Part shown: in pieces, positions 33,802 to 58,759 of the stretch
Position numbering within the stretch: the stretch's first letter is position 1
How the letters are laid out: every line of letters begins with the position of its first letter
IMG/VR virus record: IMGVR_UViG_3300029305_003442
DNA: 64,000 bases
Strand: one strand, 5' to 3'
DNA from: a virus
Program-made: the position numbers and the translations under genes
The notes under the pieces: generated by a model
Seen by the model: only the letters and a program-made list of their open reading frames with translations
Database searches by the model: none
Told to the model about the DNA's origin: nothing

Positions 33802-34239
33802 TTATATATTACAATCTCGTACTTCTAACTTCATCGCACTTTCATAATAATTTTTAGCTTGACCATTGCCGCCCAAAGAAGTATATAATTTATAAAATTC
33901 AGTTAATTGGTCATACTAGTCGGGAGTCATAAATCCTTGTCTAATAAATCCTTTGCATAATTGAACTAAACGGAAACGATAAGAAGAAATAATTAAATTC
34001 ATGTGATTCTTTTCTACTTGACCCACATTATAGATATAAGACCTTAATTCTTCAAGCTCCTATTGAATTGGTTCAATTTTACTGTCAATTGTTTCATTCA
34101 ATTTGTCAGTCTCTTGGTCTGCTAAAAGCTTTTTATAATTTTTCATTTGACTATGCATATATTTACAAAAAGCTAAAGCACCAGCAGAAATTAAACCAAA
34201 AATAATTTCAATGAAATGTTCAGTTAAAAAAGCTAACAT
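33802..34239 (-). CDS. Small membrane protein with N-terminal TM helix and coiled coil (145 aa, 2 TAG); BhlA/UviB/XhlA-like lysis-accessory candidate (low confidence)
   Basis: ATG 34239 (SD AAAGGGGA); frame verified to TAA 33802-33804; 438 nt = 146 codons. Confidence 0.4.
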
Positions 34240-34305
34240 TATAACAAATCCCCTTTCTTAAAATTTTTTCTCACACTATATCAATTTTAAGTAAGGGGAT
34301 TTTAT

Positions 34306-34797
34306 TTATTCAGACCAATCAAATGATTTTGCCTAAGAGTTTAGATACCAGTGACCAATACATATTGCGTCACTTTCATCTTCTGTAGCTTGTTTATTAT
34401 AAAGCGTTTTTATTAATAACTAAGCTTCTTTTTTCTACTCTGGACGAGTTCTACTTTTTATACCGATTTTACTTTTCCATACTGTAGCTAATACAGCTTC
34501 AACTGGTATATCTAATTCTACAATCAATTCATAAATAACACCAAATACTTCTGCTAATGTTTTAAAGGTTTGAACATTTCCTGTTACATTAGATTGAAGT
34601 TGTATATCTTCCATTATAACTTTATTAATAGAATAAGTATCAATTAATTGATGAACATTTTTTCTAATATTAAGCAATCTATCTCCTAAATCGGATTGAT
34701 TACAAGTAAAATGTCCATAATCAATTAATTGATTATCTTCAAATATAGCATATCCAGTTATTTTAGAAGACTAATCTAAAGATAAGATTCTGCTCAT
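34306..34797 (-). CDS. RuvC-like Holliday-junction resolvase (163 aa) with 4 in-frame TAG
   Basis: MSRILSLD(Q)SSKITGYAIFE N-terminus and DAICIGHWYL C-terminal motif; ATGA overlap with dut stop; track ORF 34435-34677 is its middle. Confidence 0.6.
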
Positions 34798-35489
34798 ACT
34801 GATTCAAAAACATCTGCTTTTAATCCAAGAGAATTAAAAACATCAAGTAATTTTTCATCAATTTTAATTTCGTTATTTAAATTAATTGATTGTAAAGAAG
34901 TAGAACCAAATCCGCCTGTTCGTAAGCCAATAGCTACATCATCTTCAATGGTATAATAAGGTTTAATAATTCCTTGACCAATAATATCTCCTCGTTTTAA
35001 TTGAATATCAAATGGAGATAAATTAATTAATTGAAAGAAAATTTCACCTTCATTATCAGGATTATTATAATAATCAGCGTCAATAATACCAACTCCATTA
35101 GCAAGAATAAGCCAATATTTTAAAGGAGTAGAAGACCGCACGCTTAATTCAAGATAAGTATTTGGAAGTAATTCACATTTCATTCCAGTAGAAACTAAAG
35201 AAGGTTTAATTTTTGATGCTTTAGTAACAGCGGCAACATCTTCAAGAGTATAAGGTTTACTCATCTTTTGCGCAAGCTCATATTCAGCCTTCTTCTTTTC
35301 TTCTGAGTCAATTACATTCTAATGTAATTGGAATAGTTCATATCTACCAAGCCAATTCAATTCTTCAGAACAAGATGGAATTATAATATCTTCAGCTACA
35401 ACAAAATCATATCCAGCGCTCTGTTCTGTTTTTCTAATTGGTAAAGGTAAATCAATATCATTAAATCTACTTACTTTTTCAAATTTCAT
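34794..35489 (-). CDS. dut: dUTPase with extended N-terminal region (231 codons, 1 in-frame TAG at 35319-35321)
   Basis: Motif 1 SAGYDF in upstream segment (ATG 35489), then GIIDADYYNNPDNEGEI, GDIIGQGII, RTGGFGSTS in track ORF 34794-35264; both segments same frame. Confidence 0.7.
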
Positions 35490-35734
35490 TATTCTACCTC
35501 ATAATTAATATTAACAAAACTTATCGGGTCTTTTTCATCATTGAAATGTTTGTTTAAAGTAACTTTATACCAACTATCAATAACTGCACCTTTAGATTTT
35601 CTTTCTTTAAATTCACTAGAATATTTTGCTAATGAAAATTCAGTAGCATTCTTAGCTTCATCAATAATTTCTTTTACTTCATTTTCATTATCTACTCTAT
35701 ATACTTCAATTGTACTTACAAGATATTTTGACAT
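35489..35734 (-). CDS. Hypothetical protein (81 aa)
   Basis: Track ORF; TAATG overlap with dut start. Confidence 0.45.
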   Translation of the reverse strand: MSKYLVSTIEVYRVDNENEVKEIIDEAKNATEFSLAKYSSEFKERKSKGAVIDSWYKVTLNKHFNDEKDPISFVNINYEVE

Positions 35735-35735
35735 T

Positions 35736-35996
35736 TTAATTTACCTCAATATTAATTTTTTTAGTATTATAATTTTTTACATTATACATTTGAATATCTT
35801 CAATAAAACCTTCAAGATATCCTTCATTACCATATAGGTGAATATTGTATATATCATATGTATAACAACTACTAACAATTACTTCTGCTAAATTATCAAT
35901 AGTTGTTGAAGCTATTTCTCGCTTACCATTATCATCATAAATAAATATATACTAATCAGTATTAAATAAATTAACTGAACTAACAATATAACTCAT
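35736..35996 (-). CDS. Hypothetical protein (86 aa, 1 TAG)
   Basis: ATG 35996 adjacent to upstream TAA; verified 87 codons to TAA 35736-35738. Confidence 0.4.
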
Positions 35997-35997
35997 T

Positions 35998-36396
35998 TTA
36001 TCCTCCATATGAAACCATTAAACCTTCACAATCAAATAAGCACATACATAAATTTTCATCTTCATTTGTCCGCACCCAAATTTCAATTGTATCAGAAGCT
36101 TCCATATAATCAACAGTAATAATCTTACCAATATCTAAAGCGCAAGTAAGAACTGCTTTTCCTTTATTTTCAAAATCCGATTCGTTTGCTTTTGGATAGA
36201 AAATAGTATAATAAGAAATTTCTTTACATAAAAGCATTAAATTTGAATAATTTTTCATTTTATCATTAATTAATTCAATATAAGGGTCTATATTATCTGC
36301 TATTGGAAGCTATGAAACAATAGATTTATTTAAATCATATAGATTCATAGAAATATTTCCATAATCTTTAGATTCTTTTTTTAAATTACACTTCAT
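35998..36396 (-). CDS. Hypothetical protein (132 aa, 1 TAG at 36310-36312)
   Basis: ATG 36396 with AAAGGAGA SD; in frame with track ORF 35998-36258. Confidence 0.45.
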
Positions 36397-36426
36397 TATT
36401 TATCTCCTTTTTTATTTTATATAATA

Positions 36427-36455
36427 ATTATATCATATTTTTTTATTTTTGTCAA
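36427..36455 (-). promoter_or_regulatory. Perfect consensus promoter TTGACA-17-TATAAT on minus strand (overlaps nrdG stop)
   Basis: fwd tgtcaa 36450-36455, attata 36427-36432. Confidence 0.55.
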
Positions 36456-36915
36456 GATAAATAATACGTTGATTGCGGCTTCCTCTCATAGGAAGTGTAA
36501 TGTCTCTTTCAGCTTCAATATAAGGTCCATCAATTAAACAAGTAATTAATTCTAAAATTTCTTTTATATTTGGATTATGAGGTAAATCATCGTAAGTATA
36601 CCCTGTCCATAAATAAATTTCTGTATCTGGTAATTTTTCTTTAACAGTTTTTATTACCAATAAAGTCAAAAAAGTATTTTCAGGACATAAAGGTTCTCCA
36701 CCCAAAATACTTAAAGAACGCTTAATACCATTAGCTTGAAGAGCTTCAATTATTTCATTAATTACATCAGTAGTAAATTCTAGTCCTCCGTCATAATCCC
36801 AAGTTTCGGGATTATGACAGCCAAGACAATGATGCGGACATCCTTGAGTATAGAAAGAAACTGATACACCAGTTGCCGCAGAAAAATCATTTTTAATTAA
36901 ACCTGCATATCGCAT
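36433..36915 (-). CDS. nrdG: Anaerobic ribonucleotide reductase activating protein (radical SAM)
   Basis: GCPHHCLGCHNPETW CxxxCxxC motif; 160 aa. Confidence 0.8.
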   Translation of the reverse strand: MRYAGLIKNDFSAATGVSVSFYTQGCPHHCLGCHNPETWDYDGGLEFTTDVINEIIEALQANGIKRSLSILGGEPLCPENTFLTLLVIKTVKEKLPDTEIYLWTGYTYDDLPHNPNIKEILELITCLIDGPYIEAERDITLPMRGSRNQRIIYLDKNKKI

Positions 36916-37544
36916 TATTCTTCCTCCTCTAAGTCTAAATCATGAACATCATCTGGATTAGCTACTTCGTAATAAAATATACATCTACAACTGGGATGAT
37001 ATGGTGGGAGATTAACATCTTCATCTGGCGGATATTCTCCGCCTTCACACATATCACATCCACTTTCAATTACTAATAAAGTAGCATTAATAGGTCTTTT
37101 ATTTTTCTTTACTGCATTTTCTACATTTTTAGTTTCTGTATTTAAAATTCTTTCAAATTTATAAACTAAATTATCTCTTATTTCTTTATAAGTTTTTTCT
37201 TTTAAAATATCTTGTCTTGTCTCTTCCCAAATTAAAGACAATCTATCTTGAATTGTTTTTCCATCTTCTTTATAAGTTAAATCAAAGATATTTTTGATAT
37301 TAAATTCTTCTACTTCTTCATATAATTTTTCTATATATTTACTTGTAATAAGATATGTTTCAGTTAATGATTCATAAAATAAATCTTCAATTTTTTTATA
37401 TGCTTTATCCCAAAGTTTAATATTAAAATTATTTGAATATTCTCTGACAGCTTTTAAAGATTTATTTATAATTTTTTCAAAATATTTATCTTTAGATTCG
37501 TCAATTAAATCTTCTAATTTAAGTATTTCTTTTCTGATACTCAT
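36915..37544 (-). CDS. Hypothetical protein (209 aa) inserted between nrdD and nrdG; C-terminal CxxC...HPSCRC zinc-binding motif reminiscent of Mu F/SPP1 gp7 C-terminus
   Basis: Track ORF; GCDMCEGGEYPPDEDVNLPPYHPSCRCIFY. Confidence 0.45.
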   Translation of the reverse strand: MSIRKEILKLEDLIDESKDKYFEKIINKSLKAVREYSNNFNIKLWDKAYKKIEDLFYESLTETYLITSKYIEKLYEEVEEFNIKNIFDLTYKEDGKTIQDRLSLIWEETRQDILKEKTYKEIRDNLVYKFERILNTETKNVENAVKKNKRPINATLLVIESGCDMCEGGEYPPDEDVNLPPYHPSCRCIFYYEVANPDDVHDLDLEEEE

Positions 37545-37549
37545 AACAA

Positions 37550-39841
37550 TTATCCATGTTTAACCCTTCGCTCTACCTCATCTTGTTTACCAAGGTTAAA
37601 AGCAGTTTTATAATTACCAGTTAAATAACCAGTAACTCTACGCAATTGTTGAATTTCTTTACTTCCGCATTCTGGACATTCATCATTAAATTCATCAGTA
37701 TATCCGCATTTAAGACAAGTATCATTTGGAACATTTACTGCGAAATAAGGAATATCTTTATCCATAGCATAATTTACTAAAATTTCTAATGCCTCAAGAT
37801 TATTTTTAATTCCACTATCCAATTCAACATAAGTAATACATCCAGCAGAAGAATAACAGGTTAATTGAGATTCAATATCAATTTTTTCAAATGGAGACAT
37901 CTCTATCCACACAGGTACATGCATAGAATTAGTAAAGAATTCTTTATCGGAAACATTCTCAATTACACCATATTTATCTTTAAATTTCTTTAAAGCAGTA
38001 TGACATAGGTTTTCCGCAGGTGAATAATAAACACCAAAATTTAATTTATATTCATTTTTAAATTGAGCACAACGAGTTTTAAACAATTCTTCAATTCGTT
38101 TTGCTAATTCCATTCCTTCTGGAGTAGTATGATTTTTTCCAATAAGAATTTGAAGCGTTTCAGCAAGACCTAATTGTCCAAGAGCAAGGGTACCATGCTT
38201 AAGAGCGGAACGTATTCCTTCTTCTGGAATATATCCTGCCATAAGTCCATTTTCATACATAAACTTAGCAGAATCAGGAGATTGACTACAAATCCATTCA
38301 AATCTTTCAATAAGCATATCTTTAGCATCATATATTGCTTTATCAAGAATTTCCATAAAAATATCTACAAGTTCAGTAGTATATTTATATTTATCTGTAA
38401 ATTGATTTTCCCACTCTTCTTTTGCTTCCATGGCTAATGTAGGAAGAATAATTGTTACAGGACAAATATTACCTCTACCATCTTTGAGTTGACCAAAACC
38501 ATTAATATCCCAACCATTTGCTGTGCGGCATCCCATCGTTGAGAAATAAGTTCTTGGGTCATTAATATCATATCCAGCATTACCAGACCAATCAACATTT
38601 GCGTAATTGGGATATAGTCTTTGAGCGGTTGATTTTAAAGCCAATTGGAATAAATCATAATTGGGGTCTCCAGGTTTACGATTTACACCTTTCATACATT
38701 GAAAGATTCCACAAGGGAAAATAGATGTTTTATGTAAAGCTCCAATACCTTCAATGGATACTTCAAGCAAAGCTTTAGTCACCATTCTACCTTCTGGTAA
38801 AGTACAAGTACCATAATTAATAGAAGTAAATGGCAACTGATTGCCTGAACGAGATTGAAGTGTATTAAGATTATGATACATTCCTTCTACGGCTTGATGT
38901 GTTTCTTTTTTTGTTTCAAATAGAGCTGCTTGACTTAAATATTTATCAAGATTAACAATATTACTAAAAGTGAAATCTTCATATTTAAGATTAAATTCTT
39001 TTAAATATTTTTCTTTATGATTTTCAACCCAATTATCTAATTCTTCATTTGGCATATCCAAAAGAGACAGAGCTAAAAATTCGTCAGTATGTTTTACATA
39101 TTCTAATACATAATGTTTAAAAAATGATTTGCGTATATAAGGCACCATGGTCCAGTCAATATGTGTCGCAGAAACACCACCAAATTGTTGTAAACTTTGT
39201 AATTGGAAAATAACCGCTACAAGCTGAAATGCTGTATTTACAGAACCTGCGGGACGCACATCTGTTTGTCTGGTATTAAATCCTTTAGCAAGCAAATCAT
39301 CAAAAGGAATAGATAAGCAATTATGTGAACCAACATAATAACTATTTAAGTCATGAATATAAATACGATTATTTAAATGATTTTCTCTTGCTTTTGGTGA
39401 TACAATAAAATCTAATGCTAATTGTTTCGTGACCACATCTCCAGCTTCACCTGTGCGGCCTCCAAAAGATGCTTCATCTACATTAGCATTTTGGTTTTGG
39501 ATATTTGTAGCATTTAATTTTTCTTTAACTGCGTCAATAAAATCATTTTCATAATGTCTAGCAACTTCTTTTTTATATCTATAACGAATATATTCTCTTG
39601 CTACATCACTGCGTTCAGAACGCATTAAATATTCTTCAACTTTATCTTGAACTTTTTCAACAGTAAATGGTTTATCTGAATTATGTACAGCATCTTTATA
39701 AATAGCTTCCGCTATATCAGCAGCTGTATCTGTTTCATAAAGTTTTCCATCAACTTCAAGAAAAGCTTTATTTATTGCGGTAATAATTTTACCTTTATTA
39801 AAAGGAACAAGTGTTCCATCTCTTTTATAAATTTGTACCAT
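37550..39841 (-). CDS. nrdD: Anaerobic (class III) ribonucleoside-triphosphate reductase
   Basis: 763 aa; C-terminal glycyl-radical region RRVTGYLTG; Cys-rich zinc ribbon CLKCGYTDEFNDECPECG; no in-frame TAG. Confidence 0.85.
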   Translation of the reverse strand: MVQIYKRDGTLVPFNKGKIITAINKAFLEVDGKLYETDTAADIAEAIYKDAVHNSDKPFTVEKVQDKVEEYLMRSERSDVAREYIRYRYKKEVARHYENDFIDAVKEKLNATNIQNQNANVDEASFGGRTGEAGDVVTKQLALDFIVSPKARENHLNNRIYIHDLNSYYVGSHNCLSIPFDDLLAKGFNTRQTDVRPAGSVNTAFQLVAVIFQLQSLQQFGGVSATHIDWTMVPYIRKSFFKHYVLEYVKHTDEFLALSLLDMPNEELDNWVENHKEKYLKEFNLKYEDFTFSNIVNLDKYLSQAALFETKKETHQAVEGMYHNLNTLQSRSGNQLPFTSINYGTCTLPEGRMVTKALLEVSIEGIGALHKTSIFPCGIFQCMKGVNRKPGDPNYDLFQLALKSTAQRLYPNYANVDWSGNAGYDINDPRTYFSTMGCRTANGWDINGFGQLKDGRGNICPVTIILPTLAMEAKEEWENQFTDKYKYTTELVDIFMEILDKAIYDAKDMLIERFEWICSQSPDSAKFMYENGLMAGYIPEEGIRSALKHGTLALGQLGLAETLQILIGKNHTTPEGMELAKRIEELFKTRCAQFKNEYKLNFGVYYSPAENLCHTALKKFKDKYGVIENVSDKEFFTNSMHVPVWIEMSPFEKIDIESQLTCYSSAGCITYVELDSGIKNNLEALEILVNYAMDKDIPYFAVNVPNDTCLKCGYTDEFNDECPECGSKEIQQLRRVTGYLTGNYKTAFNLGKQDEVERRVKHG

Positions 39842-39911: not shown

Positions 39912-40466
39912 TTACTTCTGCCCAATGATGCTTAAAATTGTCTTTACGTTCTTCATTAAGTCTAATGTATTATCATTTTGTAATTCAATATATTCAAAAG
40001 GTAAATCTGAAAAATCTTTTTTATCAGTTCCATAACGTCTAACAATTTCATCAACATTTGGTTCATCTTCTCTATTTAATTGTCTTAAAAGTCTTTGTTT
40101 ATCAGAAGCTTTTATATAAAAAATAGTTACATCAATTTGAGGGTCTGATAGTAAAAATTCAACACGAGATGGGTCAAATACTCCTATATTTATAACATCT
40201 GAACGTAAACATTCATAATCAGTTCCATAAAACCAATCATTAAAAGTTGCCATTTCTACTAATTCATTATTAATAGCTTTTTGCGCAAATTGCTCTGGTG
40301 TTATAAAATAGTAATTAATACCTTCAATTTCATTATCTCTACGAGGACGTGTAGTATAACTAATAATAGAATGAACATCATTAGTATTTTCTAAAATCAT
40401 TCTTAATAATGTATCTTTACCAGAACCAGATTGCCCAATTAAAGCAATTATTTTATACTTCTTCAT
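39912..40466 (-). CDS. Guanylate-kinase-family nucleotide monophosphate kinase
   Basis: IALIGQSGSGKDTL P-loop; TTRPRRDNEIEGINYYFI guanylate-kinase signature. Confidence 0.6.
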   Translation of the reverse strand: MKKYKIIALIGQSGSGKDTLLRMILENTNDVHSIISYTTRPRRDNEIEGINYYFITPEQFAQKAINNELVEMATFNDWFYGTDYECLRSDVINIGVFDPSRVEFLLSDPQIDVTIFYIKASDKQRLLRQLNREDEPNVDEIVRRYGTDKKDFSDLPFEYIELQNDNTLDLMKNVKTILSIIGQK

Positions 40467-40692
40467 TTATGTCAATAGCCTCATCTTCATATTCATATTT
40501 TAATTGATTAGGTAATTCATTACGATAAAAAGTATATTTCCTTTTACAGGTAGGACAAAAATAAACATACTGTTCAGGATAAGTACATAAAACTTTACCA
40601 GTACTTTTTATTTCTTCATTACAATCTTCACAATAAAAGCTATCTATATAGATAGCTTTTACATATCGTCTTTTAATTTTCATCTTCTTCAA
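40453..40692 (-). CDS. Small zinc-ribbon protein (79 aa)
   Basis: CEDC...CPTC pairs. Confidence 0.4.
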   Translation of the reverse strand: MKKMKIKRRYVKAIYIDSFYCEDCNEEIKSTGKVLCTYPEQYVYFCPTCKRKYTFYRNELPNQLKYEYEDEAIDINEEV

Positions 40693-45733: not shown

Positions 45734-45770
45734 ATATATTCACTCTCCATTTTTATTTTTTCATATAAAT

Positions 45771-47184: not shown

Positions 47185-47186
47185 TT

Positions 47187-47776: not shown

Positions 47777-47815
47777 AAATATATTTACCCCTCACTTATT
47801 ATTATTTCTATATAT

Positions 47816-47844
47816 ATTATATCATATTTTTTTATAAAAATCAA
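47816..47844 (-). promoter_or_regulatory. Promoter-family member (TTGATT-17-TATAAT)
   Basis: fwd aatcaa 47839-47844, attata 47816-47821. Confidence 0.5.
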
Positions 47845-47846
47845 AA

Positions 47847-47869
47847 AGGGAAGATTTTATTCTTCCCTT
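47847..47869 (-). terminator. Hairpin terminator immediately upstream of promoter
   Basis: AAGGGAAGA-ttttat-TCTTCCCTT, T-run on minus strand. Confidence 0.4.
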
Positions 47870-50297: not shown

Positions 50298-50487
50298 TTT
50301 AGCTCCATTATTAATATTTTTAATTAAAGAAGGAGATAAAATGTCATTATCAGTTGTATTGAGGTAATGCTATACCTCTGCCAGAGGAATTCCTCTATTT
50401 GTTAATACTCTCTATACCGCAGTTAATTTTATTTTTTGTGGAATAGATGAATCTATAAGCTTATATTCCATATTTATCACTCCTATT

Positions 50488-50790
50488 TTAATAGAAATTA
50501 TAAGCAGTAAAAGGAGGAGCGCTTGTACTAGGTCTAATGATATTATGTCTTATTTCTACTGGAATATTATTATCTATATAAGATATATTACATTTAACGC
50601 CACGACTTAATTCAGTAGCTTTTTTTACCATCCAGTAATCGCCATTAGTAAAATGTACTTCATATTTATATTTATTACATTGTACATCTTCAATAATATT
50701 TTCACCATAATATCGTACATAACTGTCTATAATTTCAGTTAATTTATTACAAGCATATTCAAATGTATTTCCCCAAACTATACCTTTCAT
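50488..50790 (-). CDS. Hypothetical protein (100 aa)
   Basis: Track ORF, ATGA overlap with primase stop. Confidence 0.4.
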   Translation of the reverse strand: MKGIVWGNTFEYACNKLTEIIDSYVRYYGENIIEDVQCNKYKYEVHFTNGDYWMVKKATELSRGVKCNISYIDNNIPVEIRHNIIRPSTSAPPFTAYNFY

Positions 50791-51887: not shown

Positions 51888-52060
51888 TAAAAAGTTAATA
51901 CGCGGGTAACAGGTCTAAGAAGACCATATTGCTCATTGACTACCTTACAAAGATATTCATTAGGACGCATTTTCTTATCAAGCCCATCACGACTTCTTAA
52001 AAGTTCCTTAGCTAATTCTTCAGGCATCTTATACTCAAAATAAGCATTCTTGTTTTCCAT
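51887..52060 (-). CDS. Small hypothetical protein (57 aa)
   Basis: GAGGT SD; ATG 52060 to TAA 51887-51889. Confidence 0.3.
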   Translation of the reverse strand: MENKNAYFEYKMPEELAKELLRSRDGLDKKMRPNEYLCKVVNEQYGLLRPVTRVLTF

Positions 52061-52074
52061 AATTATTACCTCTC

Positions 52075-53616
52075 TTATTCATTATATTCAAAAGCTGATT
52101 CTTCATCTAATTTAATTTTGATATCTTTCATATCTATTAATTCATAATCATATGAAGTACAAAACATAGGTTGAATTCTACAACAACCCAAATCTGCTTT
52201 ACACCATAAATAAACACCTTTATAACGTCCTCGTCTATTTTTATAAACAGACAATTTAATTGTGGGTTTATCAAAAACATTAGTTGCTAAAATTGTTTCT
52301 AAAGCTTGAATATCTTCTTCTTTTACATTTAATAAAATCGCACCCACGTCAATTTTATCGGCAATTGCTTTAGCACCTCTCAGTAATGTTTGGTCTGGAG
52401 TTTTTGATTCGGCAAAATCACCATTTAACTGCGTTGCTGACATAATAAACACTCCATATTGATTACAAATATCTTTTAATCGTGTAGATAACATAAATAA
52501 AATATTATCTTCACGCAATTTAATACCGCCACTTCTTCGCGTTATTTCTTCAAGAATTTTTAAACTTGTATGAATATAGTCATGAAAAATATAATATACA
52601 TCATGGTCACGAATATTTCTTTTAATTGTATTTTCTACATCTTTTAAAGAAAAATCTGGCAATTCTTCTACATAAAGTGGAGCATTAGATAAGATTTTAG
52701 CTGCTTCTAAAACCCTTTCTTCTTCATTACCATCATATTGACCATTTAAAATATGCTCTTCATTAACATTAGATATAAAAGCTAACATCATAGTTTGAAC
52801 TTCTTCAAGTTCCTGTTCTGTTGTAATGAACAATACTGGTCTATTAACACCACAACTAATCCATCCAAAAGATTCATCATAAATTTTATTACAAGCAATA
52901 TAACAAGCATCAGCTATCATACTTCTTGTTTTTCCAACACCTGTAGCTGCTGAACGCAAATAAAATTTTTTTAATCTTGCTCCACGAGTAACTGTATTAA
53001 TCAATGGTCCATATAATGGAACACCAACTTCTGGATGTTGTTTAAATTTATCAATCAATTCAAAAATTCCATCGGCGGCTTGACTGGCTTCTCCATCACT
53101 ATCATCCACATATTGAAGTCTAATATTATCAATTTTTTTATCAACTTGGTCAGCAATCTCTTCAAGATTTACATTATCCAACCAATCTTCTTGAATTTGT
53201 TTCTTTTTTACATCAAGAATATTATTTGGGTCATATAAATCAGAAATATCAATGCCGCAATTATCATAAGCTCTTAAAAGAGTGAACTTTTTTAATCTAT
53301 TATAATAATAATCAAATGTTGAACTCATACAAGTTTCAGCAGCTTTTAAAATCCACTCTTCACCTTTTTGTTGTTTATATATTGCCGCACTTTTTGGTCT
53401 ATTGGATAGAAAATCTGATATATTTTCTAATGTAATTTTTTTTGCTCCCAATTCATAAATTTTATAAATTGCTCCAAAAATTATACGATGGAATTCATCT
53501 GGAAAATCTTCATCTGTAATAATATATTTATCAGTAAAATCTAAAATTTGCGGTGTATTATATACACATCCAATTACTTGAATAATTGCTTGTATATCTA
53601 CATATTGTGATGCCAT
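52075..53616 (-). CDS. DnaB-family replicative helicase
   Basis: N-terminal DnaB-like helical domain; ATGVGKT Walker A; 513 aa; no TAG. Confidence 0.7.
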   Translation of the reverse strand: MASQYVDIQAIIQVIGCVYNTPQILDFTDKYIITDEDFPDEFHRIIFGAIYKIYELGAKKITLENISDFLSNRPKSAAIYKQQKGEEWILKAAETCMSSTFDYYYNRLKKFTLLRAYDNCGIDISDLYDPNNILDVKKKQIQEDWLDNVNLEEIADQVDKKIDNIRLQYVDDSDGEASQAADGIFELIDKFKQHPEVGVPLYGPLINTVTRGARLKKFYLRSAATGVGKTRSMIADACYIACNKIYDESFGWISCGVNRPVLFITTEQELEEVQTMMLAFISNVNEEHILNGQYDGNEEERVLEAAKILSNAPLYVEELPDFSLKDVENTIKRNIRDHDVYYIFHDYIHTSLKILEEITRRSGGIKLREDNILFMLSTRLKDICNQYGVFIMSATQLNGDFAESKTPDQTLLRGAKAIADKIDVGAILLNVKEEDIQALETILATNVFDKPTIKLSVYKNRRGRYKGVYLWCKADLGCCRIQPMFCTSYDYELIDMKDIKIKLDEESAFEYNE

Positions 53617-53630
53617 TAAACATCATCCTC

Positions 53631-54146
53631 CTATTCTTCATCCAAAAACGTAAATAATTTTCTTTTTGGCTTAATTTTTCGTTTTGGAATTGGAATAATT
53701 ATTTCTTGTACTTCCGGCACATATTCTTTAATTACTTTATTTTCATTTTTTTGTTTAGCTTCCCATAAGCTATAATAATAATTAAAAGCATTTTGATACA
53801 CATATGGAACTATACCTATACCACCATTTGCTTTTTCAATATCACCATTTTTAACTTCATAATGATAAACTAATGCTTTTTGAATTCCAGAATATGTATA
53901 TTTATAATTATTTATATATTCATTAATTTGTTTACGAATACGAGCATCCACATATGAAATATTAAATAATTTCATAATATAATTTTCTAAATCATTTTTT
54001 TCTTTTTCAAGTTGTTCTTGTTCTTTTTGCTTTAAATCAAAACAATTTTTATGAGCATACCGACGAGAACTAGTATTTATATATTGTTCTGTATTAGCAT
54101 CAAATTGCTAACCGCAAATAGAACATTTTACTAAATGTTTAGCCAT
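53631..54146 (-). CDS. Hypothetical protein (171 aa, N-terminal CSICG zinc motif, 1 TAG at 54108-54110)
   Basis: ATG 54146 with GAAAGGAG SD; in frame with track ORF 53631-53975. Confidence 0.4.
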
Positions 54147-54181
54147 TGAATACTCCTTTCATTTTTATATTTTATATAAAT

Positions 54182-54210
54182 ATTATACCATATTTTTATA
54201 TAAAAATCAA
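54182..54210 (-). promoter_or_regulatory. Promoter-family member (TTGATT-17-TATAAT)
   Basis: fwd aatcaa 54205-54210, attata 54182-54187. Confidence 0.5.
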
Positions 54211-54236
54211 GGCAAGATTTTTCAACCTTGCCTTTT
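54209..54236 (-). terminator. Hairpin terminator directly upstream of promoter
   Basis: AAGGCAAG-atttttcaac-CTTGCCTT. Confidence 0.35.
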
Positions 54237-54243
54237 ATATTTA

Positions 54244-55233
54244 TTAACCAAGTAATTCGTCTTTAATTTCCAAAACAATCAAATGAATAAATTCAGCTTG
54301 GTCTCTAGTTGTTTCAGCAATTTTCTTACCCTTACCAAGATATTTATCAATAATCTGAGTAATACGAGGACCAAAGAAATTGGGGTCTTTATTCATTAAA
54401 TCACCGACAATAGCTTGGAATTCAGCCATAAGAGCATCGTAATCATATTCATTAAGAATTACATCAGCATTTCTCTCATTTGTAACATAAGCATTGTTGG
54501 TTGCGGCGGCTTCCTTATCAATAGCCTCAGTAAGAGCAGCGGTAAGTGCGTCATAAGTAAAATCAATTTCAGAAGCAATATACTTAAAACGACAACCACA
54601 GCGGACACTATTATCACTAGAACGAAGCGTTAATACCATACGAGTATTTCCGTTATCATCAACTTTAGGATGCGCATAACCAATAATGTCACTCATATTT
54701 TCAATAATAGCAAGAGCAGAAGACTGGATAGAAGAACCAATTTGCTGATATTCTTTAGAATTCTGCGGAGAAATTGTCTTTTCTTTATCATGAGAAATAA
54801 ATACTACCGCATAACCCAATTGAGTTAAAGTTCTAAAAACATCTTCAAATTCTTTCTTATACTTAGACCAACCATTGGTACTCCAACCGCCATCACCAAT
54901 ATTTTCAATACCAAGCTGATTACAGATATATTTCTGACAGCATTCAGCAGCAATATCGGCAGTATCAACAATAATACTCTTATAAACTTCCTTTACTTCT
55001 GGCCTCTTTAATTCACGAACTACCTACTTCATATCGCCCCAGCTAGTAATATCCTGAGCGATTACACCAGGTAGAGCATTATATCCTCGCTCAAAAGCAA
55101 GAAGTAGTGCTCCAGGCATCTTTGAGCCAAATGTGGTTTTACCACACTTGGCAGGCCCATAAATAAAGGTAATATAGCCACTCAAATCGCGGCTTACTTT
55201 GTGAGGAGTCAAACCTAAAAGATTAATAGCCAT
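54244..55233 (-). CDS. Sak4-like RecA-family ATPase (AAA_24), ssDNA-annealing/recombination; 1 TAG at 55024-55026
   Basis: ITFIYGPAKCGKTT Walker A; track ORFs 55024-55233 and 54244-54819 are the same frame (990 nt). Confidence 0.6.
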
Positions 55234-55253
55234 TTTTAATTACCTCCATTTAA

Positions 55254-56186
55254 TTAAAACTTAAAAGTATCATTAGAAGCAGCCTGCGGAATCGCATTCT
55301 GACTAGCCTTATATTCTTCCTGACGCTGCTTAACAGTAGCCAGATAAGTTTCACGAGCAGCCATTGCTTCCTTCAATTCAGTAGCAGTAATACCACTATC
55401 ATCATCCCAAAGATAAGGCTCCTTGGCAGCACCAGTAATTACAAAATCACGATGAGAAGTAGGCGTTTCCTTAACGAGAGTATCACCAAACGCAGATTCC
55501 TCAGTAGTCTTTTTTACAATAGTTTCAGAAATCTAACGACCCCAAATCTTTGTAAACACAGGATTACTCTTAGAAGCATTCAAATCTTCAAAATAATTCA
55601 TTGCATTAGGATTAAGTGCAGTAAATTCAAAAGGAAGAAGTGCCTTACTAAAATCAAAAATATAACCCTTAACAACTACCTTTTCAGGCTGCTCCTTTTC
55701 AGGATTTGCTTCAATACGTGCCGCACCCTCAATAAGCATATCGCATTCAAAAGTATTGCGAGTCTTTTCATCTTCTGCCAAACTATCAGTAAGATGTACA
55801 AAACCGCCTTCATTGCGCTTAGCACTTACCAATTCATCTGTTCCATTTCTATTGGAATAAAATTCATTCAGTCCAAGAGCAGAATCAATTCTTACCTTAC
55901 CTGCCTTATCAGGACCATCCTTCATATAAGTTCCAATAGCACCATCAATAATTGCTTTAAGAGTTGTATAGGTGGCATTCGGAGAACCCTTCTTTGTAGT
56001 TGCAGTTACATATGAAAAATGAACAGGAACAACATTAGTTACTGCGTTATCAGTTGCTACACTCAAAGTACCGGAAATAAATTCAGTTCCAGGATTCTTA
56101 GACTGCTTTCCAGAAACCTTAACTTCAAGAGCGTGTTCATAAATAATACCTTCAATATGTGTCTTATTAATAAGATTAGCTTTCAT
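55254..56186 (-). CDS. Putative ssDNA-binding protein (SSB/DUF2815-like), 310 aa, 1 TAG
   Basis: Track ORF 55533-56186 continues in frame past TAG for 92 codons to TAA; acidic DDDSG tail region; adjacent to Sak4. Confidence 0.4.
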
Positions 56187-56217
56187 AATTTAATTTTCTC
56201 CTTAATTAATACATTTT

Positions 56218-56583
56218 TTAATTAATTTCAATATTTTTTCCATTTTCAGTTAAAGAATAAATTGTGGGGTCTTGACCTACTTTTTCTACAAAGCCATCTG
56301 TTACAAGTTTTCTCATAGCTCCTGAAACTGTTTTTGAAGAAATAAAAAGTCCTTCTCCAATATCCTTTGCTTTCCAATTTTCAGTATCAAGATTATCTTT
56401 CATATACTGAAGAACAAGTTTACCATTGTCTGTAAACATTGGCTTCTCAGTTACCTCAATATTTTTAAATACTTTCCAATAAGCCAATGCTTCTTCGTTC
56501 ATTGGAGTAGGATATGCTTCAATTGCCATTTCAACATACTTAATAAATTCTGCTTTTTTAGACATTTTAAAACTCACTTTCAA
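56218..56583 (-). CDS. Hypothetical winged-helix-like protein (121 aa)
   Basis: Track ORF. Confidence 0.4.
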   Translation of the reverse strand: MKVSFKMSKKAEFIKYVEMAIEAYPTPMNEEALAYWKVFKNIEVTEKPMFTDNGKLVLQYMKDNLDTENWKAKDIGEGLFISSKTVSGAMRKLVTDGFVEKVGQDPTIYSLTENGKNIEIN

Positions 56584-56609
56584 ATTATCTTTTTTAATTT
56601 TCTATAAAT

Positions 56610-56638
56610 ATTATATCATATTTTTTTATAAAAATCAA
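56610..56638 (-). promoter_or_regulatory. Promoter-family member (TTGATT-17-TATAAT)
   Basis: fwd aatcaa 56633-56638, attata 56610-56615. Confidence 0.5.
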
Positions 56639-57463
56639 TTAAGAGTTTTTTAATTCATCAATAAAGATAAATTGTTGAGCATATGGAAGTGAGCGAGCCA
56701 TTTTAATAAAACTTTCAGTTATAAAATCATCTCCATCGCCAGACCATTCAGTTAATTTGTGAAATCTACGCTGACTAGGAGAGCACATTGCATAAGCATT
56801 TTCATATGTGAATGTACAAGTGCGTGTTTGAAGCCATGCTTGAGAATTCCATCTAACTAATTCTTTCCAATATCTTTTATCATTTGTATCATTATATCGC
56901 TGACGTAAAAATTCAAGAAATGGAATTAAATGATTCTCTGCCATTAAGGCAATATCTGTATCTTCAATTTGAGGATTATAATCATCAGTTTCAAAGCAGT
57001 CAATTGTAATTGGTTTGCTCGTAAGTTTATGCATAGTGCTTGTTGAATTAGCTACCGTTCCTACTTTGTAGGTGTCATATTCTTTCCACCAATATAGAGG
57101 AGCAGTAATGTCAACACAAACCATGATTTGCCGCATAAATTTACGGTGTTCAGAACCTGCTTTAATCAAAGTTTGCGCAAGTTTCATATCTTTTGGTCCA
57201 ATAGCAGCATATTCATAAAGACCTCTATCTTCATATATAACTACATCTTTTAAAAATTTATCTAAATCTACAGAAGTAATAGTAGAACATTGTAATTCTT
57301 CATTGTAATTATGCTTATTTAAGACATCGGTTGCTACATCTACTACATTATCCCAATTACCTAAACCAAACTAACTATCACTTAAATGCCAAGACTCTTT
57401 AGGGTTGCGCATTCCACGCAGTGCGCCTTCAAAATTAAATACTCTAATATTTTCAAATTTCAC
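56639..57463 (-). CDS. ThyX-like (flavin-dependent thymidylate synthase family) protein, 274 aa, GTG start, 1 TAG at 57371-57373; RHR motif not evident
   Basis: GSEHRKFMRQIMV...APLYWWKEY resembles the ThyX core (ETPFEHIVFTF...APIFVARQW) but the RHRxxS signature is replaced. Confidence 0.35.
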
Positions 57464-57465
57464 TG

Positions 57466-57768
57466 TTAATCATCCTCACTTAAAGTATATCCAGCAATAG
57501 AATTTTTATAACAATAATGTTGAGTTAAACGTTTCATAAACATTTCTAATTCATCAATATAAAAAATTTTATCTTCTTCCCATTCATCTAAATGGTCTTC
57601 AATAAAATCTGAATAAGAAACAAATTCAATACCAATGATACCATAAGCTTTAGCCTTTTCACTTAAAGCAATTGGATTTGCGCAAATAATTGCGCCATTT
57701 GTTTCTTTTGCTTTAAGCATAAGCTTTTTTGTCTTTCCACTTCCGCGGGAATCAATAACTCTAAACAT
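57466..57768 (-). CDS. Hypothetical protein (100 aa)
   Basis: Track ORF. Confidence 0.4.
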   Translation of the reverse strand: MFRVIDSRGSGKTKKLMLKAKETNGAIICANPIALSEKAKAYGIIGIEFVSYSDFIEDHLDEWEEDKIFYIDELEMFMKRLTQHYCYKNSIAGYTLSEDD

Positions 57769-57769
57769 A

Positions 57770-58759
57770 TTATTTGTTACCTCGTGTCATATTATAACCA
57801 AATGTTTCACTTTGATAATATTTAATCCAAAATTTTTCTTTTTCATTAAGTTGCGTTCTATCACATTCTTCAAGAATTTCAAAAGAGAAATTTTCTACTT
57901 TATCACTTTTCATAGCAGTATATAATTTATTGTTTGAACCATCAATACCTAAACCAGCTTTAATATGTGTTTTAAATCTATCAGCAATATTAACTGATTG
58001 TCCTATATAACACATTTGATTATTTAAATTAGTAATTTTATAAATACCAATTTTATTTTCTGTACCTATTAATCTGCCAATTAAATCACTTGTAGGTTTT
58101 TCATAATAAGTTTTCCAAATAATTTTATTTAATGGTTCTTCATTTCTTAAATAAGGAATTATTGAACGCAATTTTTCAATTTCATTTTTATCTGTATCAG
58201 ATAATTGTATTTTATAAAATTCTTTTTTATTGTTTTCTTCTAAAGTTCTTTTATTCGCTTGAATAGCCGCATTTACAATAGAAGTCTAATCATTAATTTT
58301 TTGTTCCAAAAGAGATAAAGTATCCTAATGCTATTTTATAGTTTCTGCGGTTTGCTGCGCAAGTTCTTCCATTAAATTAAAATATTCTTCTTCACATTGC
58401 TTTTTATTCTTTTCAAATTCAATTCGCATATTTTCAGTAGATAATTCAAATTCTTTTTCCGCAATCTATTTACTTTGTTTATAAATAACTTCTCCAGCTT
58501 GCTTTGCCTATTCTTCAATTAACATAATACTTTTCTATGTCTCTTCTCTTTTGGATTCTAAAAATTTTATATTTCCTTTTAAATTTAAAGAATCTAATTT
58601 TAATGATTGATTTTCATTTGTCAATATTTCATTTTCTTTTTGTAATTCTTCGTTTTTAAATGCTATTTCTTTATTATAAGTAATATTTTTTTTACCTTTT
58701 AATAAATAAAAACAAAGCATTCCAAATAGAAAACTTAAAATACATAAAAATATTGTCAT
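57770..58759 (-). CDS. TM-anchored coiled-coil protein with C-terminal GIY-YIG nuclease domain (329 aa, 6 in-frame TAG)
   Basis: Track ORFs 58535-58759 (TM + coiled coil) and 57770-58171 (IGIYKITNLNNQMCYIGQSVNIADRFKTH) are in one frame (990 nt); intervening 122 codons verified open except TAG. Confidence 0.5.

What the first reader, a model, noticed from the sequence alone, without database searches (positions are those of the whole stretch)
33802..58759. TAG distribution is bimodal among minus-strand genes
The large replication enzymes (NrdD, NrdG, DnaE exons, DnaB, primase, RecD-like, RecJ-like, LigA, GyrA-like, guanylate kinase) contain zero in-frame TAG. Some core functions do require TAG read-through for their conserved C-terminal domains: dUTPase (1 TAG), RuvC-like (4) and Sak4-like (1). 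The SSB-like gene (1), ThyX-like gene (1), the homing endonuclease (1), the membrane GIY-YIG (6) and several small proteins (1-2 each) also need read-through. This suggests an early TAG-free gene set translated by the unmodified host, and a second wave of 'middle' functions (recombination, resolution, dUTP sanitation) gated by suppressor availability.
Basis: seen in the sequence. Interest (0 to 1): 0.5.

Follow-up and report, generated by a model that had tools for sequence, protein, structure and literature searches.

The report
Uneven amber-codon use in phage replication genes
This is the replication arm of an uncultured SPbeta-like phage that reads the stop codon TAG as glutamine; TAG is kept out of the core replication enzymes and concentrated in a few DNA-cutting and membrane genes, which is a gene-by-gene version of an already described phage strategy.

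Summary
On the minus strand (33802-63998) 15 of 36 genes carry 25 in-frame TAG codons. The TAG-free genes hold 66% of the codons, against 36% expected by chance (p<5e-5). No gene ends in TAG. One count is wrong: RecJ-like has two in-frame TAGs, not zero.

The distribution is graded rather than bimodal. Across about 280 related loci the share of glutamine-type codons written as TAG runs without a gap:
- Core replisome: 0-4% (GyrA, DnaE, primase, LigA).
- DnaB, NrdD, Dda, Sak4, dUTPase and YorF: 6-7%.
- RecJ and the membrane protein g1: 22-23%.
- Membrane-anchored GIY-YIG nuclease: 36%.
- RuvC: 50%.

So dUTPase, Sak4 and the "SSB-like" gene do not differ from the "early" enzymes. Their single TAGs are lineage-specific. 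Only RuvC, the GIY-YIG gene, g1 and RecJ (in relatives) are consistently TAG-rich.

Eight copies of one host-type promoter precede both TAG-free and TAG-rich units, so any timing difference would have to arise in translation. That step is inferred. No suppressor tRNA lies in the roughly 81 kb I could reach, and there are no expression data.

Standard-code early genes and recoded late genes are published for other phages (Borges et al.). This is a new member of a known kind.

The parts
33802..34239 (-). g1, 145-aa protein with an N-terminal hydrophobic segment (phrog_4105/4257); 2 TAG (34060-34062, 33916-33918)
   Evidence: In relatives 23% of Gln-type codons are TAG.
34306..34797 (-). g2, RuvC-like Holliday junction resolvase; 4 TAG (residues 9, 121, 126, 155), 2.45 per 100 codons
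   Evidence: PF02075 at 1e-09 and phrog_159 at 7.5e-23, both spanning all the TAGs. At least one TAG in 28 of 28 recoded lineages; TAG fraction 0.50.
34794..35489 (-). g3, dUTPase; 1 TAG (residue 57, 35319-35321)
   Evidence: PF00692 and phrog_135; the PHROG match covers residues 15-213 and spans the TAG. In relatives TAG is present in only 21% of lineages.
35489..36396 (-). g4 (0 TAG), g5 (1 TAG, 35952-35954) and g6 (1 TAG, 36310-36312), small hypothetical genes
36422..36455 (-). Host-type (sigma-A-like, extended -10) promoter, TTGACA-17-TATAAT with TG, upstream of unit g6-g1
36433..39841 (-). g7 NrdG, g8 hypothetical, g9 NrdD; 0 TAG
   Evidence: phrog_626 and phrog_487. In relatives NrdD carries 0-9 TAG.
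39912..40683 (-). g10 guanylate kinase and g11 hypothetical; 0 TAG
   Evidence: phrog_1815.
40673..43180 (-). DnaE-type polymerase, C-terminal part (exon 2 begins at 43180 with DIDIDL); 0 TAG in 836 codons
   Evidence: phrog_12219 at 2e-174; sequence read.
43181..44362 (-). 1182-nt insertion splitting dnaE, probably a group I intron. It carries the GIY-YIG/NUMOD3 homing endonuclease g13 (43303-44085) with 1 TAG (43552-43554).
   Evidence: Exon junction ELP|DIDIDL, U before the 5' junction and G at the 3' end. PF07460, PF01541 and phrog_314. No Rfam match.
44363..45733 (-). DnaE-type polymerase, N-terminal part (exon 1); 0 TAG
   Evidence: phrog_405 and phrog_7513.
45766..45799 (-). Promoter copy upstream of dnaE exon 1
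45994..47184 (-). g15, Dda/RecD-like helicase; 0 TAG
   Evidence: phrog_325 at 4.5e-98.
47417..47776 (-). g16, hypothetical; 1 TAG (47627-47629)
47811..47869 (-). Terminator-like hairpin (47846-47869) followed by a promoter copy (47811-47844)
47857..48687 (-). g17, protein with an N-terminal hydrophobic leader and a Phage_lysozyme2 domain; 0 TAG
   Evidence: PF18013 at 1.1e-15. TAG fraction 2.5% in relatives.
48726..50471 (-). g18, RecJ-like exonuclease; 2 TAG (residues 20 and 34).
   Evidence: phrog_2484 match over residues 1-576. AGGAG ribosome-binding site and conserved N-terminus. Relatives carry up to 18 TAG; TAG fraction 0.22.
50488..53616 (-). g19 hypothetical, g20 primase, a 57-aa ORF, g21 DnaB-like helicase; 0 TAG
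   Evidence: phrog_47 and phrog_19.
53616..54146 (-). g22, YorH-family protein; 2 TAG (residues 13 and 172)
   Evidence: phrog_4680; PF26927 on the identical gene in L001.
54177..54234 (-). Terminator-like hairpin (54209-54234) and a promoter copy (54177-54210)
54244..56565 (-). g23 Sak4-like AAA_24 (1 TAG, 55024-55026), g24 YorF family (1 TAG, 55533-55535), g25 winged-helix regulator-like (0 TAG)
   Evidence: PF13479 at 1.3e-39 and phrog_124; PF27337 in L001.
56605..56638 (-). Promoter copy upstream of g25
57770..58759 (-). g28: N-terminal hydrophobic segment, helical linker, C-terminal GIY-YIG nuclease. 6 TAG, all upstream of the nuclease domain (residues 75-158; domain 237-323).
   Evidence: PF01541 at 1.4e-09. 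At least one TAG in 30 of 30 lineages; TAG fraction 0.36.
58775..58799 (-). Terminator-like hairpin directly upstream of g28. No canonical promoter copy precedes g28.
58815..59383 (-). g29 (1 TAG, 58974-58976) and g30 (0 TAG), each behind its own promoter copy (59157-59190 and 59410-59443)
59455..61407 (-). g31, NAD-dependent DNA ligase; 0 TAG. Promoter copy at 61436-61469, terminator-like hairpin at 61470-61497.
   Evidence: phrog_3869 at 3.8e-154.
61483..63998 (-). g32 hypothetical and g33 GyrA (cut by the window end); 0 TAG
   Evidence: phrog_551. GyrA has 0 TAG in 20 of 20 lineages.
33755..33800 (.). Bidirectional terminator-like hairpin (20-bp stem) between the converging plus-strand and minus-strand modules
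1..33775 (+). Comparison set: plus-strand tail and other late-type module. 146 TAG in 10,717 codons (1.36 per 100; 37% of Gln-type codons).

Best explanation
The window comes from an uncultured phage with a large genome (one carrying contig is 99 kb). Its replication genes resemble those of SPbeta-like phages of Firmicutes, and it decodes TAG as glutamine.

Within the minus-strand replication and nucleotide-metabolism arm, TAG use is a graded, gene-family-specific property with three rough levels:
1. The replisome core (DnaE, GyrA and GyrB, primase, LigA, and largely DnaB, NrdD and Dda) is kept essentially TAG-free. It can therefore be made by the unmodified host translation system.
2. Accessory genes (dUTPase, Sak4, YorF, YorH, g26 and small ORFs) carry occasional single TAGs. 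These come and go between lineages and mark no special class.
3. A few genes carry TAG loads as high as late genes. They are RuvC resolvase, a membrane-anchored GIY-YIG nuclease, the membrane protein g1, RecJ in relatives, and an Amidase_2 lysin-like gene just beyond the window.

The same host-type promoter precedes both TAG-free and TAG-rich units. The most likely mechanism is therefore translational: TAG-rich ORFs terminate prematurely until a phage amber suppressor tRNA-Gln accumulates. That would postpone or attenuate DNA-cutting and envelope-acting proteins relative to the replisome.

Shown: the recoding, TAG = Gln, the non-random and clade-conserved ranking of families, and the shared promoter class.
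Inferred: the temporal gating and the existence and timing of the suppressor.
For: Recoding and amino-acid identity:
- Coding coverage rises from 0.73 to 1.07 with TAG as sense, and TAG is never a terminator.
- Conserved columns in relatives hold only Gln or TAG. Q is the commonest residue opposite window TAGs.

Late versus replication arm:
- 1.36 against 0.26 TAG per 100 codons, or 37% against 8% of Gln-type codons.

Heterogeneity inside the arm:
- p<5e-5.
- Clade-derived family rates fit the window far better than a uniform rate (deviance 30 against 66).

Clade ranking from about 280 loci, dereplicated at 90% identity with recoding status judged leave-one-out:
- RuvC 0.50, GIY-YIG 0.36, g8 0.30, g30 and g19 0.29, g1 0.23, RecJ 0.22.
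- DnaB, Sak4, NrdD, Dda, dUTPase and YorF 0.06-0.07.
- LigA 0.04, primase 0.03, DnaE 0.01-0.02, GyrA 0.

Confounders checked:
- Sequence divergence does not explain the ranking (rho -0.24, p=0.2). GyrA, LigA and Dda are as divergent as RuvC yet nearly TAG-free.
- Length alone does not explain it. Late ORFs of 1,453 and 2,075 codons carry 23 and 25 TAGs, and a giant ORF of at least 2,843 codons upstream carries 63.

Other support:
- Eight copies of one promoter motif, all on the minus strand and all intergenic (0.09 expected), precede the TAG-free units (LigA; DnaE to NrdG) and the TAG-rich unit g6-g1 alike.
- Beyond the window on the same strand, the Amidase_2 gene has 11 TAGs while RNase H, GyrB and GyrA have none.
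- The same TAG counts recur in independent assemblies from several samples.
- Literature: recoded late and lysis genes, 'variable' recoding of replication genes, and a preferentially recoded intron endonuclease inside an early gene. TAG presence in NrdG, dUTPase and PhoH genes varies among TAG-recoded gut phages whose wider group includes phages of Enterococcus and Enterocloster.
Against: - No suppressor tRNA, release factor or aminoacyl-tRNA synthetase was found in the window or in the extra 9.6 kb and 7.4 kb reachable at its two ends. The code-switch machinery, and hence its timing, is unobserved.
- There are no transcript or protein timing data. The promoters and terminators are consensus predictions only.
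- The representatives used in the family-level Fisher tests are not phylogenetically independent, so those p-values are inflated. The effect sizes are the more reliable guide.
- Some relatives carry many TAGs even in NrdD (9), DnaB (12), primase (8) and Dda (8). TAG-freeness of 'early' enzymes is therefore a tendency, not a rule.
- Unit g28-g26 lacks the canonical promoter and sits behind a hairpin, so for that unit transcription could also differ.
- TAG fraction falls with gene length across families (rho -0.47, p=0.01). A cost-of-readthrough model would also predict this.
Confidence: 0.55

Rival explanations
1. It proposes a discrete 'middle' class of recombination, resolution and dUTP-sanitation genes (Sak4, SSB-like, RuvC, dUTPase, ThyX-like). 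Each is gated by needing read-through, in contrast with a TAG-free 'early' class.
For: - The window's counts are as stated, except for RecJ.
- RuvC is TAG-rich in every recoded relative.
- The unit g6-g1, which holds dUTPase and RuvC, has 1.07 TAG per 100 codons, close to late genes.
Against: - In relatives dUTPase, Sak4 and YorF carry TAG in only 21-43% of lineages. Their TAG fraction (6-7%) equals that of DnaB, NrdD and Dda and lies below the module mean.
- Their TAGs are at non-conserved positions.
- Without g1, RuvC and the GIY-YIG gene, the window no longer correlates with the clade.
- The family TAG fractions form a continuum with no gap.
- The 'ThyX' and 'SSB' labels are unsupported.
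Confidence: 0.12
2. No regulatory role. Once a suppressor exists, CAR-to-TAG changes drift in wherever they are tolerated. Purifying selection against imperfect read-through removes them from long, highly needed proteins. The pattern would then be a by-product of read-through cost, not a timing device.
For: - TAG positions turn over extensively. TAG occurs at 44 different columns in the 163-aa RuvC, 120 columns in the GIY-YIG protein and 76 in RecJ, and few are shared widely.
- TAG fraction falls with gene length (rho -0.47, p=0.01).
- Lineages differ widely in how far TAG has spread into replication genes.
- The single TAGs are lineage-specific.
Against: - Very long late ORFs tolerate 23-63 TAGs, so length-dependent cost alone cannot keep DnaE or GyrA at 0-2%.
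- RuvC and the GIY-YIG gene use TAG for 36-50% of Gln-type codons. That equals or exceeds the late genes sampled (pooled 21% in relatives, 37% in the window) and suggests a positive preference.
- Divergence rate does not predict TAG fraction.
Confidence: 0.28
3. Artefact. The TAGs are genuine stops, so the gene models are wrong and the genes are split or decayed. Alternatively they are assembly errors.
For: - Standard-code gene callers do split these genes; see the JGI calls.
- For g22 the second TAG lies only 5 codons from the end, so that one could be a real stop.
Against: - Profile matches and ortholog alignments run straight across the TAGs.
- TAG alternates only with Gln at invariant columns.
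- No gene terminates in TAG.
- The identical sequence recurs in independent assemblies.
Confidence: 0.02

Closest known systems
Stop-codon recoding as a late-gene and lysis timer in gut phages (Borges et al., bioRxiv 10.1101/2021.08.26.457843; crAss-like, Lak, Agate, Jade and other clades)
   Same: - Late-type (tail) genes are heavily recoded here, as is a lysin-like gene just beyond the window.
- Replication genes are mostly in the standard code, and recoding in the replication machinery is 'variable'.
- A homing endonuclease inside an intron of an early gene carries in-frame stops.
- A family-level preference for the recoded codon over CAA and CAG exists.
   Different: - This lineage is a different one: a large TAG-recoded phage with an SPbeta-like replication module. 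The TAG-recoded gem clades of that paper (Garnet, Amethyst, Topaz) are 22-34 kb.
- The families most biased here are RuvC resolvase, a membrane-anchored GIY-YIG nuclease and RecJ inside the replication arm. Those families are not reported as preferentially recoded there.
- No code-change module was found next to the genes examined.
phAss-1 / 'Phassvirus' group of TAG-recoded gut phages (Babkin et al. 2023, PMC10607447)
   Same: - Large genomes (about 133-138 kb), TAG read as Gln, and a very long tape-measure-type ORF.
[quoted passage not shown]
- Presence of TAG in NrdG, dUTPase, holin and PhoH genes differs between close species. That matches the lineage-specific single TAGs seen here.
   Different: - GC content differs (about 44% there, 28% here).
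- No close nucleotide similarity to any GenBank phage: megablast found only a 76% match over NrdD.
- phAss-1 has 2-3 tRNA-Sup(CTA) genes and 28-36 tRNAs. None lies in the 81 kb examined here.
- That paper did not analyse TAG load by gene class.
SPbeta-like phages (Bacillus SPbeta and phi3T; Enterococcus EF5 and VRE9)
   Same: - The DnaB-like helicase is 39% identical to YorI.
- YorF and YorH family domains are present.
- From my knowledge of SPbeta gene names, the set resembles yorF-yorL: AAA_24 protein, helicase, primase, RecJ-like exonuclease and DnaE-type polymerase. I did not test the gene order.
   Different: - In Babkin et al. [quoted passage not shown] I did not check the cultured SPbeta-like genomes myself.
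- Identity is only about 39%.
- The window phage additionally carries gyrase, LigA and NrdDG.
Code 15 (TAG read as Gln) in crAss-like phages, shown by metaproteomics (Peters et al. 2022, PMC9523058)
   Same: The same reassignment is inferred here from columns that hold only Q or TAG.
   Different: There are no proteomic data for this lineage, and the host phylum differs (Bacteroidota there; Firmicutes inferred here).

Membership tests
TAG-to-Gln (code 15) recoded phage | In-frame TAG inside conserved protein-coding genes, with homology continuing on both sides | tested here: met
   Pfam and PHROG matches and ortholog alignments span the TAGs in RuvC, dUTPase, Sak4, RecJ, the GIY-YIG gene and tail genes.
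TAG-to-Gln (code 15) recoded phage | Coding density rises markedly when TAG is read as sense, and TAG is not used as a terminator | tested here: met
   Coverage by ORFs of at least 100 aa rises from 0.73 to 1.07. All modelled genes end in TAA or TGA.
TAG-to-Gln (code 15) recoded phage | TAG aligns with glutamine in homologs | tested here: met
   Columns that hold only Q or TAG in the GIY-YIG and RecJ families. Q is the commonest partner of window TAGs.
TAG-to-Gln (code 15) recoded phage | Phage-encoded amber suppressor tRNA (anticodon CUA) | tested here: inconclusive
   No tRNA in the window or in the 9.6 kb and 7.4 kb beyond it. The genome is larger than that: one contig that carries it is 99 kb. 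Only one tRNA(CUA) was seen in 278 related loci (L111).
Recoding-as-timer model (standard-code early genes, recoded late genes) | Late-type and lysis genes enriched in the recoded codon, replication genes depleted | tested here: met
   1.36 against 0.26 TAG per 100 codons. The Amidase_2 lysin-like gene has 11 TAGs. The replisome core is at 0-4% of Gln-type codons across the clade.
Recoding-as-timer model (standard-code early genes, recoded late genes) | Code-change machinery encoded in the standard code and expressed before the recoded genes | not testable with these tools
   The machinery was not located and no expression data exist.
Recoding-as-timer model (standard-code early genes, recoded late genes) | Delayed appearance of proteins whose genes contain the recoded codon | not testable with these tools
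   This needs time-resolved proteomics or ribosome profiling of an infected host.
   dUTPase has TAG in 21% of lineages, Sak4 in 43% and YorF in 34%, against NrdD 65%, NrdG 50% and DnaB 32%. TAG fractions are equal at 6-7%.
Group I intron with GIY-YIG homing endonuclease (the dnaE split) | Insertion interrupts a conserved motif so that the exons join in frame; U before the 5' splice site and G at the intron's 3' end; endonuclease ORF inside | tested here: met
   ELP|DIDIDL junction; T at 44363; G at 43181; GIY-YIG/NUMOD3 ORF at 43303-44085.
Group I intron with GIY-YIG homing endonuclease (the dnaE split) | Recognisable group I ribozyme core | tested here: not met
   No Rfam hit at gathering score or at E<=1. 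The ORF insertion may defeat the model, so the fold remains unverified.
SPbeta-like replication module | Homologs of YorF, YorG (AAA_24), YorH, YorI (DnaB), YorJ (primase), YorK (RecJ-like) and YorL (DnaE-like) in one co-oriented block | tested here: met
   PF27337 YorF, PF13479 and PF26927 YorH. YorI at 39% identity. PHROG calls for primase, RecJ and DnaE. Gene order versus SPbeta itself was not aligned.

The most novel reading that the evidence does not exclude
TAG load acts as a per-gene translational safety catch on DNA-cutting and membrane-acting proteins that sit inside host-transcribed early operons. The proteins concerned are RuvC resolvase, a membrane-anchored GIY-YIG nuclease, RecJ, the intron endonuclease and a small membrane protein. 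The phage could then co-transcribe them with its replisome but withhold their synthesis until the suppressor tRNA accumulates. Amber codon density would serve as an evolvable, graded delay or attenuation dial, not just an early/late switch.
Probability: 0.3. Interest if true: 0.5.

Novelty: new member of a known kind. Interest (0 to 1): 0.3.

Why it matters
The case shows that in a TAG-recoded phage the split between standard-code and recoded genes does not follow module or strand boundaries. It operates gene by gene inside co-oriented arrays that share one promoter type, and the ranking of gene families is conserved across a large uncultured clade.

If the translational-delay reading holds, amber density could be used to predict expression order and toxic or late functions in uncultured phages. 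It would also extend the known preferential recoding of lysis genes and an intron endonuclease to resolvases and other nucleases.

There is a practical point too. Annotation pipelines that apply one code per genome or per block will mis-call genes such as RuvC, RecJ and the GIY-YIG nuclease that are interleaved with standard-code genes.

Tried and rejected
- Suppressor tRNA. ARAGORN found nothing in the window, in the 9.6 kb upstream or in the 7.4 kb downstream recovered from metagenome contigs. Across 278 related loci only one tRNA(CUA) turned up, in a distant locus.
- Close annotated relatives. Megablast against GenBank phages gave only a 76% match over NrdD to Thomasclavelia phages.
- Rfam, on the whole window and on the dnaE insertion. 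No hit.
- 'ThyX-like' and 'SSB-like' labels. No Pfam or PDB sequence support. Structure prediction was not attempted because ortholog alignments from loci may not be submitted.
- Sequence divergence as the cause of TAG load. Rejected (rho -0.24, p=0.2).
- Gene length as the sole cause. Rejected because very long late ORFs are TAG-rich.
- A separate promoter class for the TAG-containing genes. Not found: the same 34-nt motif precedes both kinds of unit. Only unit g28-g26 lacks it.
- A tail-protein search, meant to test whether TAG-free relatives are recoded in their late genes. It returned mostly other contigs, so for many TAG-free relatives the coding status is unresolved. L121 has no TAG even in its late-gene orthologs.

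Full report
**What the window is.** The 64-kb window has 28% GC and two converging gene arrays that meet at a bidirectional hairpin at 33755-33800.
- ORFs of at least 100 aa cover 0.73 of the sequence under the standard code and 1.07 with TAG as sense.
- The plus-strand array (1-33775) encodes tail-type and other late-type proteins.
- The minus-strand array (33802-63998) encodes NrdD and NrdG, guanylate kinase, a split DnaE-type polymerase, a Dda/RecD-like helicase, RecJ-like exonuclease, primase, DnaB, YorH/Sak4/YorF-family proteins, LigA, GyrA, dUTPase and RuvC.
- The nearest cultured relatives are SPbeta-like phages of Bacillus and Enterococcus, at 39% identity in the DnaB/YorI helicase. 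No GenBank phage is close at the nucleotide level.
- The identical sequence occurs in several independent metagenome assemblies, one on a 99-kb contig.

**Checking the observation.** I modelled 33 minus-strand genes plus three small gap ORFs.
- 25 in-frame TAGs fall in 15 genes.
- The zeros are right for NrdD, NrdG, DnaE, DnaB, primase, Dda, Gmk, LigA and GyrA.
- RecJ-like is wrong. It has TAGs at residues 20 and 34. They lie downstream of an ATG with an AGGAG site and within an N-terminus conserved in the orthologs aligned; in the 23 relatives compared the first TAG aligns with Glu in all. The phrog_2484 match covers residues 1-576.
- The labels 'ThyX-like' and 'SSB-like' have no Pfam or PDB sequence support.

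**Is it more than chance?**
- The late arm has 146 TAG in 10,717 codons (1.36 per 100; 37% of Gln-type codons).
- The replication arm has 25 in about 9,450 (0.26 per 100; 8%).
- Within the replication arm, TAG-free genes hold 66% of the codons against 36% under random allocation (0 of 20,000 simulations). The result survives removal of the GIY-YIG gene and RuvC (p=0.003).
- No gene ends in TAG.

**Which amino acid.** Relatives show columns that hold only Gln or TAG: GIY-YIG column 254 (Q 35 / TAG 13), and RecJ columns 326, 314 and 171. Q is the commonest residue opposite window TAGs. This matches published TAG-to-Gln recoding (PMC9523058; PMC10607447).

**Comparative test of the interpretation.** I collected 278 related loci from IMG/VR using DnaB, a tail protein, NrdD and a Sak4 alignment as queries.
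- I called ORFs with TAG as sense and matched them to the window's proteins.
- I kept loci that showed at least two TAGs in other families, so that recoding status was judged leave-one-out.
- I dereplicated orthologs at 90% identity.

The fraction of Gln-type codons written as TAG, by family:

| Families | TAG fraction |
|---|---|
| RuvC (at least one TAG in 28 of 28 lineages) | 0.50 |
| Membrane GIY-YIG (30 of 30) | 0.36 |
| g8, g30, g19 | 0.29-0.30 |
| g1 | 0.23 |
| RecJ (up to 18 TAGs) | 0.22 |
| Gmk | 0.20 |
| NrdG | 0.13 |
| g26 | 0.12 |
| YorH | 0.09 |
| YorF, dUTPase, DnaB, Sak4, NrdD, Dda | 0.06-0.07 |
| LigA | 0.04 |
| Primase, g17 | 0.03 |
| DnaE | 0.01-0.02 |
| GyrA (0 of 20 lineages) | 0 |

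- The scale is continuous, not bimodal.
- NrdD carries 1-9 TAGs in 65% of lineages.
- The window's per-gene density correlates with the clade mean (rho 0.42, p=0.02) only through g1, RuvC and the GIY-YIG gene. Without them rho is 0.18, p=0.38.
- A Poisson model using clade family rates fits the window much better than a uniform rate (deviance 30 against 66).
- TAG positions turn over heavily. TAG occurs at 44 different columns in the 163-aa RuvC.
- Caveat: the representatives are not phylogenetically independent, so the Fisher p-values are inflated.

**Confounders.**
- Divergence does not predict TAG fraction (rho -0.24, p=0.2). GyrA, LigA and Dda are as divergent as RuvC.
- TAG fraction does fall with length (rho -0.47, p=0.01). 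However, late ORFs of 1,453, 2,075 and at least 2,843 codons carry 23, 25 and 63 TAGs. Length alone therefore cannot explain TAG-free replisome genes.

**Transcription signals.** A 34-nt motif, TTGAY-N15-TKN-TATAATAWWTA, fits a host sigma-A-type promoter with an extended -10.
- It occurs eight times, always on the minus strand and always intergenic, against 0.09 expected.
- With four terminator-like hairpins it divides the arm into units.

| Unit | TAG per 100 codons |
|---|---|
| LigA | 0 |
| g30 | 0 |
| g29 | 1.12 |
| g28-g26 | 0.99 |
| g25-g23 | 0.27 |
| g22-g17 | 0.20 |
| g16-g15 | 0.19 |
| DnaE to NrdG | 0.03 |
| g6-g1 | 1.07 |

- The best copy of the promoter (12 of 12 matches plus TG) drives g6-g1, which ends in RuvC and g1.
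- The same promoter class therefore precedes both TAG-free and TAG-rich units.
- Only g28-g26 lacks a copy, and it sits behind a hairpin.
- These are consensus predictions, not measurements.

**Beyond the window.** On the same strand an Amidase_2 lysin-like gene has 11 TAGs and PhoH has 1. RNase H, GyrB and GyrA have none. No tRNA lies in the window or in the extra 9.6 kb and 7.4 kb reached, so the suppressor is unlocated.

**Interpretation.** The data fit a graded, family-specific tolerance of dependence on an amber suppressor.
- The replisome core is kept readable by the naive host.
- Accessory genes pick up and lose occasional TAGs.
- A few genes have late-like TAG loads: RuvC, the membrane GIY-YIG nuclease, RecJ in relatives, a small membrane protein, and the lysin-like gene.
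- The intron endonuclease carries a single TAG here. It recalls the recoded intron endonuclease reported for Agate phages, though I have too few orthologs (two representatives) to rank it.

Because the promoter class is shared, the likely mechanism is translational delay or attenuation until the suppressor accumulates. That step is inference. The main rival is that the pattern is a by-product of read-through cost and drift, with no timing function. The TAG fraction of RuvC and the GIY-YIG gene, at or above that of late genes, argues for a positive preference but does not prove it.

**Relation to what is known.** Borges et al. (bioRxiv 10.1101/2021.08.26.457843) already described:
- recoded structural and lysis genes;
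- standard-code or 'variably' recoded replication genes;
- family-level preference tests;
- a preferentially recoded intron endonuclease in an early gene.

Babkin et al. (PMC10607447) described large TAG-recoded gut phages related to phages of Enterococcus and Enterocloster. In those phages TAG presence in NrdG, dUTPase and PhoH genes differs between species.

The present case is a new member of that kind, in a different lineage. It adds the detail that RuvC and a membrane-anchored GIY-YIG nuclease are the most strongly recoded families inside the replication arm. Interest is modest.

Noticed in passing
window 36422-36455, 45766-45799, 47811-47844, 54177-54210, 56605-56638, 59157-59190, 59410-59443, 61436-61469 (all minus strand): Eight near-identical 34-nt promoter-like elements (TTGAY-N15-TKN-TATAATAWWTA, sigma-A type with extended -10). 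All are intergenic in the replication arm, against 0.09 expected by chance. Several sit directly after terminator-like hairpins.
   Followed up: partly
window 43181-44362 (minus strand): dnaE is split by a 1182-nt insertion carrying a GIY-YIG/NUMOD3 endonuclease. The exons join as ELP|DIDIDL, with U before the 5' junction and G at the 3' end, as in group I introns. Rfam gives no hit.
   Followed up: partly
window 23649-29270 (plus strand): A 390-aa ORF very rich in Ser, Thr, Cys and Asn (23649-24821) is followed by an ORF matching a radical-SAM PHROG (24831-26210). A second Cys-rich ORF (26211-27599) and a Cys-motif-rich ORF (28149-29270) follow; neither was clearly annotated. This could be a peptide or protein modification cassette inside the late arm.
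   Followed up: no
window 29743-30462 (minus strand) and 30463-30732: A lone antisense gene sits inside the plus-strand arm (phrog_8810; by eye it looks like a response-regulator receiver domain with a DNA-binding domain; 1 TAG). Next to it is a 270-nt AT-rich intergenic region. It may be a regulator of late genes.
   Followed up: no
window 30706-31236 (plus strand): A Gln-rich small protein has 11 TAGs in 176 codons, including three consecutive TAG codons at 31159-31167. This is the densest amber use in the window.
   Followed up: partly
window 47857-48687 (minus strand): A protein with an N-terminal hydrophobic leader and a Phage_lysozyme2 domain sits inside the replication arm. It is TAG-free here and strongly TAG-depleted in relatives (2.5%). 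The Amidase_2 lysin-like gene beyond the window has 11 TAGs. A cell-wall enzyme apparently kept in the 'early-readable' set is unexpected.
   Followed up: partly
window 23283-23615 (plus strand) and 23243-23282: A TAG-free 110-aa gene inside the TAG-rich late arm has its own promoter-like sequence of the same type (TTGACA...TGTTATAAT).
   Followed up: no
L283 2-8530 (about 9.6 kb upstream of the window start): A giant ORF of at least 2,843 codons carries 63 in-frame TAGs. By size it resembles a tape-measure gene. It precedes the 1,817-codon ORF that runs into the window.
   Followed up: no
L191, L133, L147 and other related loci: Relatives differ greatly in how far TAG has spread into replication genes. 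At one extreme there is none anywhere (L121, L122, L124). At the other there are 9 TAGs in NrdD and 4 in DnaE (L191), or 8 in Dda (L133). In L120, L142 and L143, RuvC is the only replication-arm ortholog detected with TAG, as if it were the first to be recoded.
   Followed up: partly
window 51887-52060, 45796-45990, 47187-47420 (minus strand): Three small ORFs (57, 64 and 77 aa) with ribosome-binding sites fill gaps that looked intergenic. All are TAG-free.
   Followed up: partly
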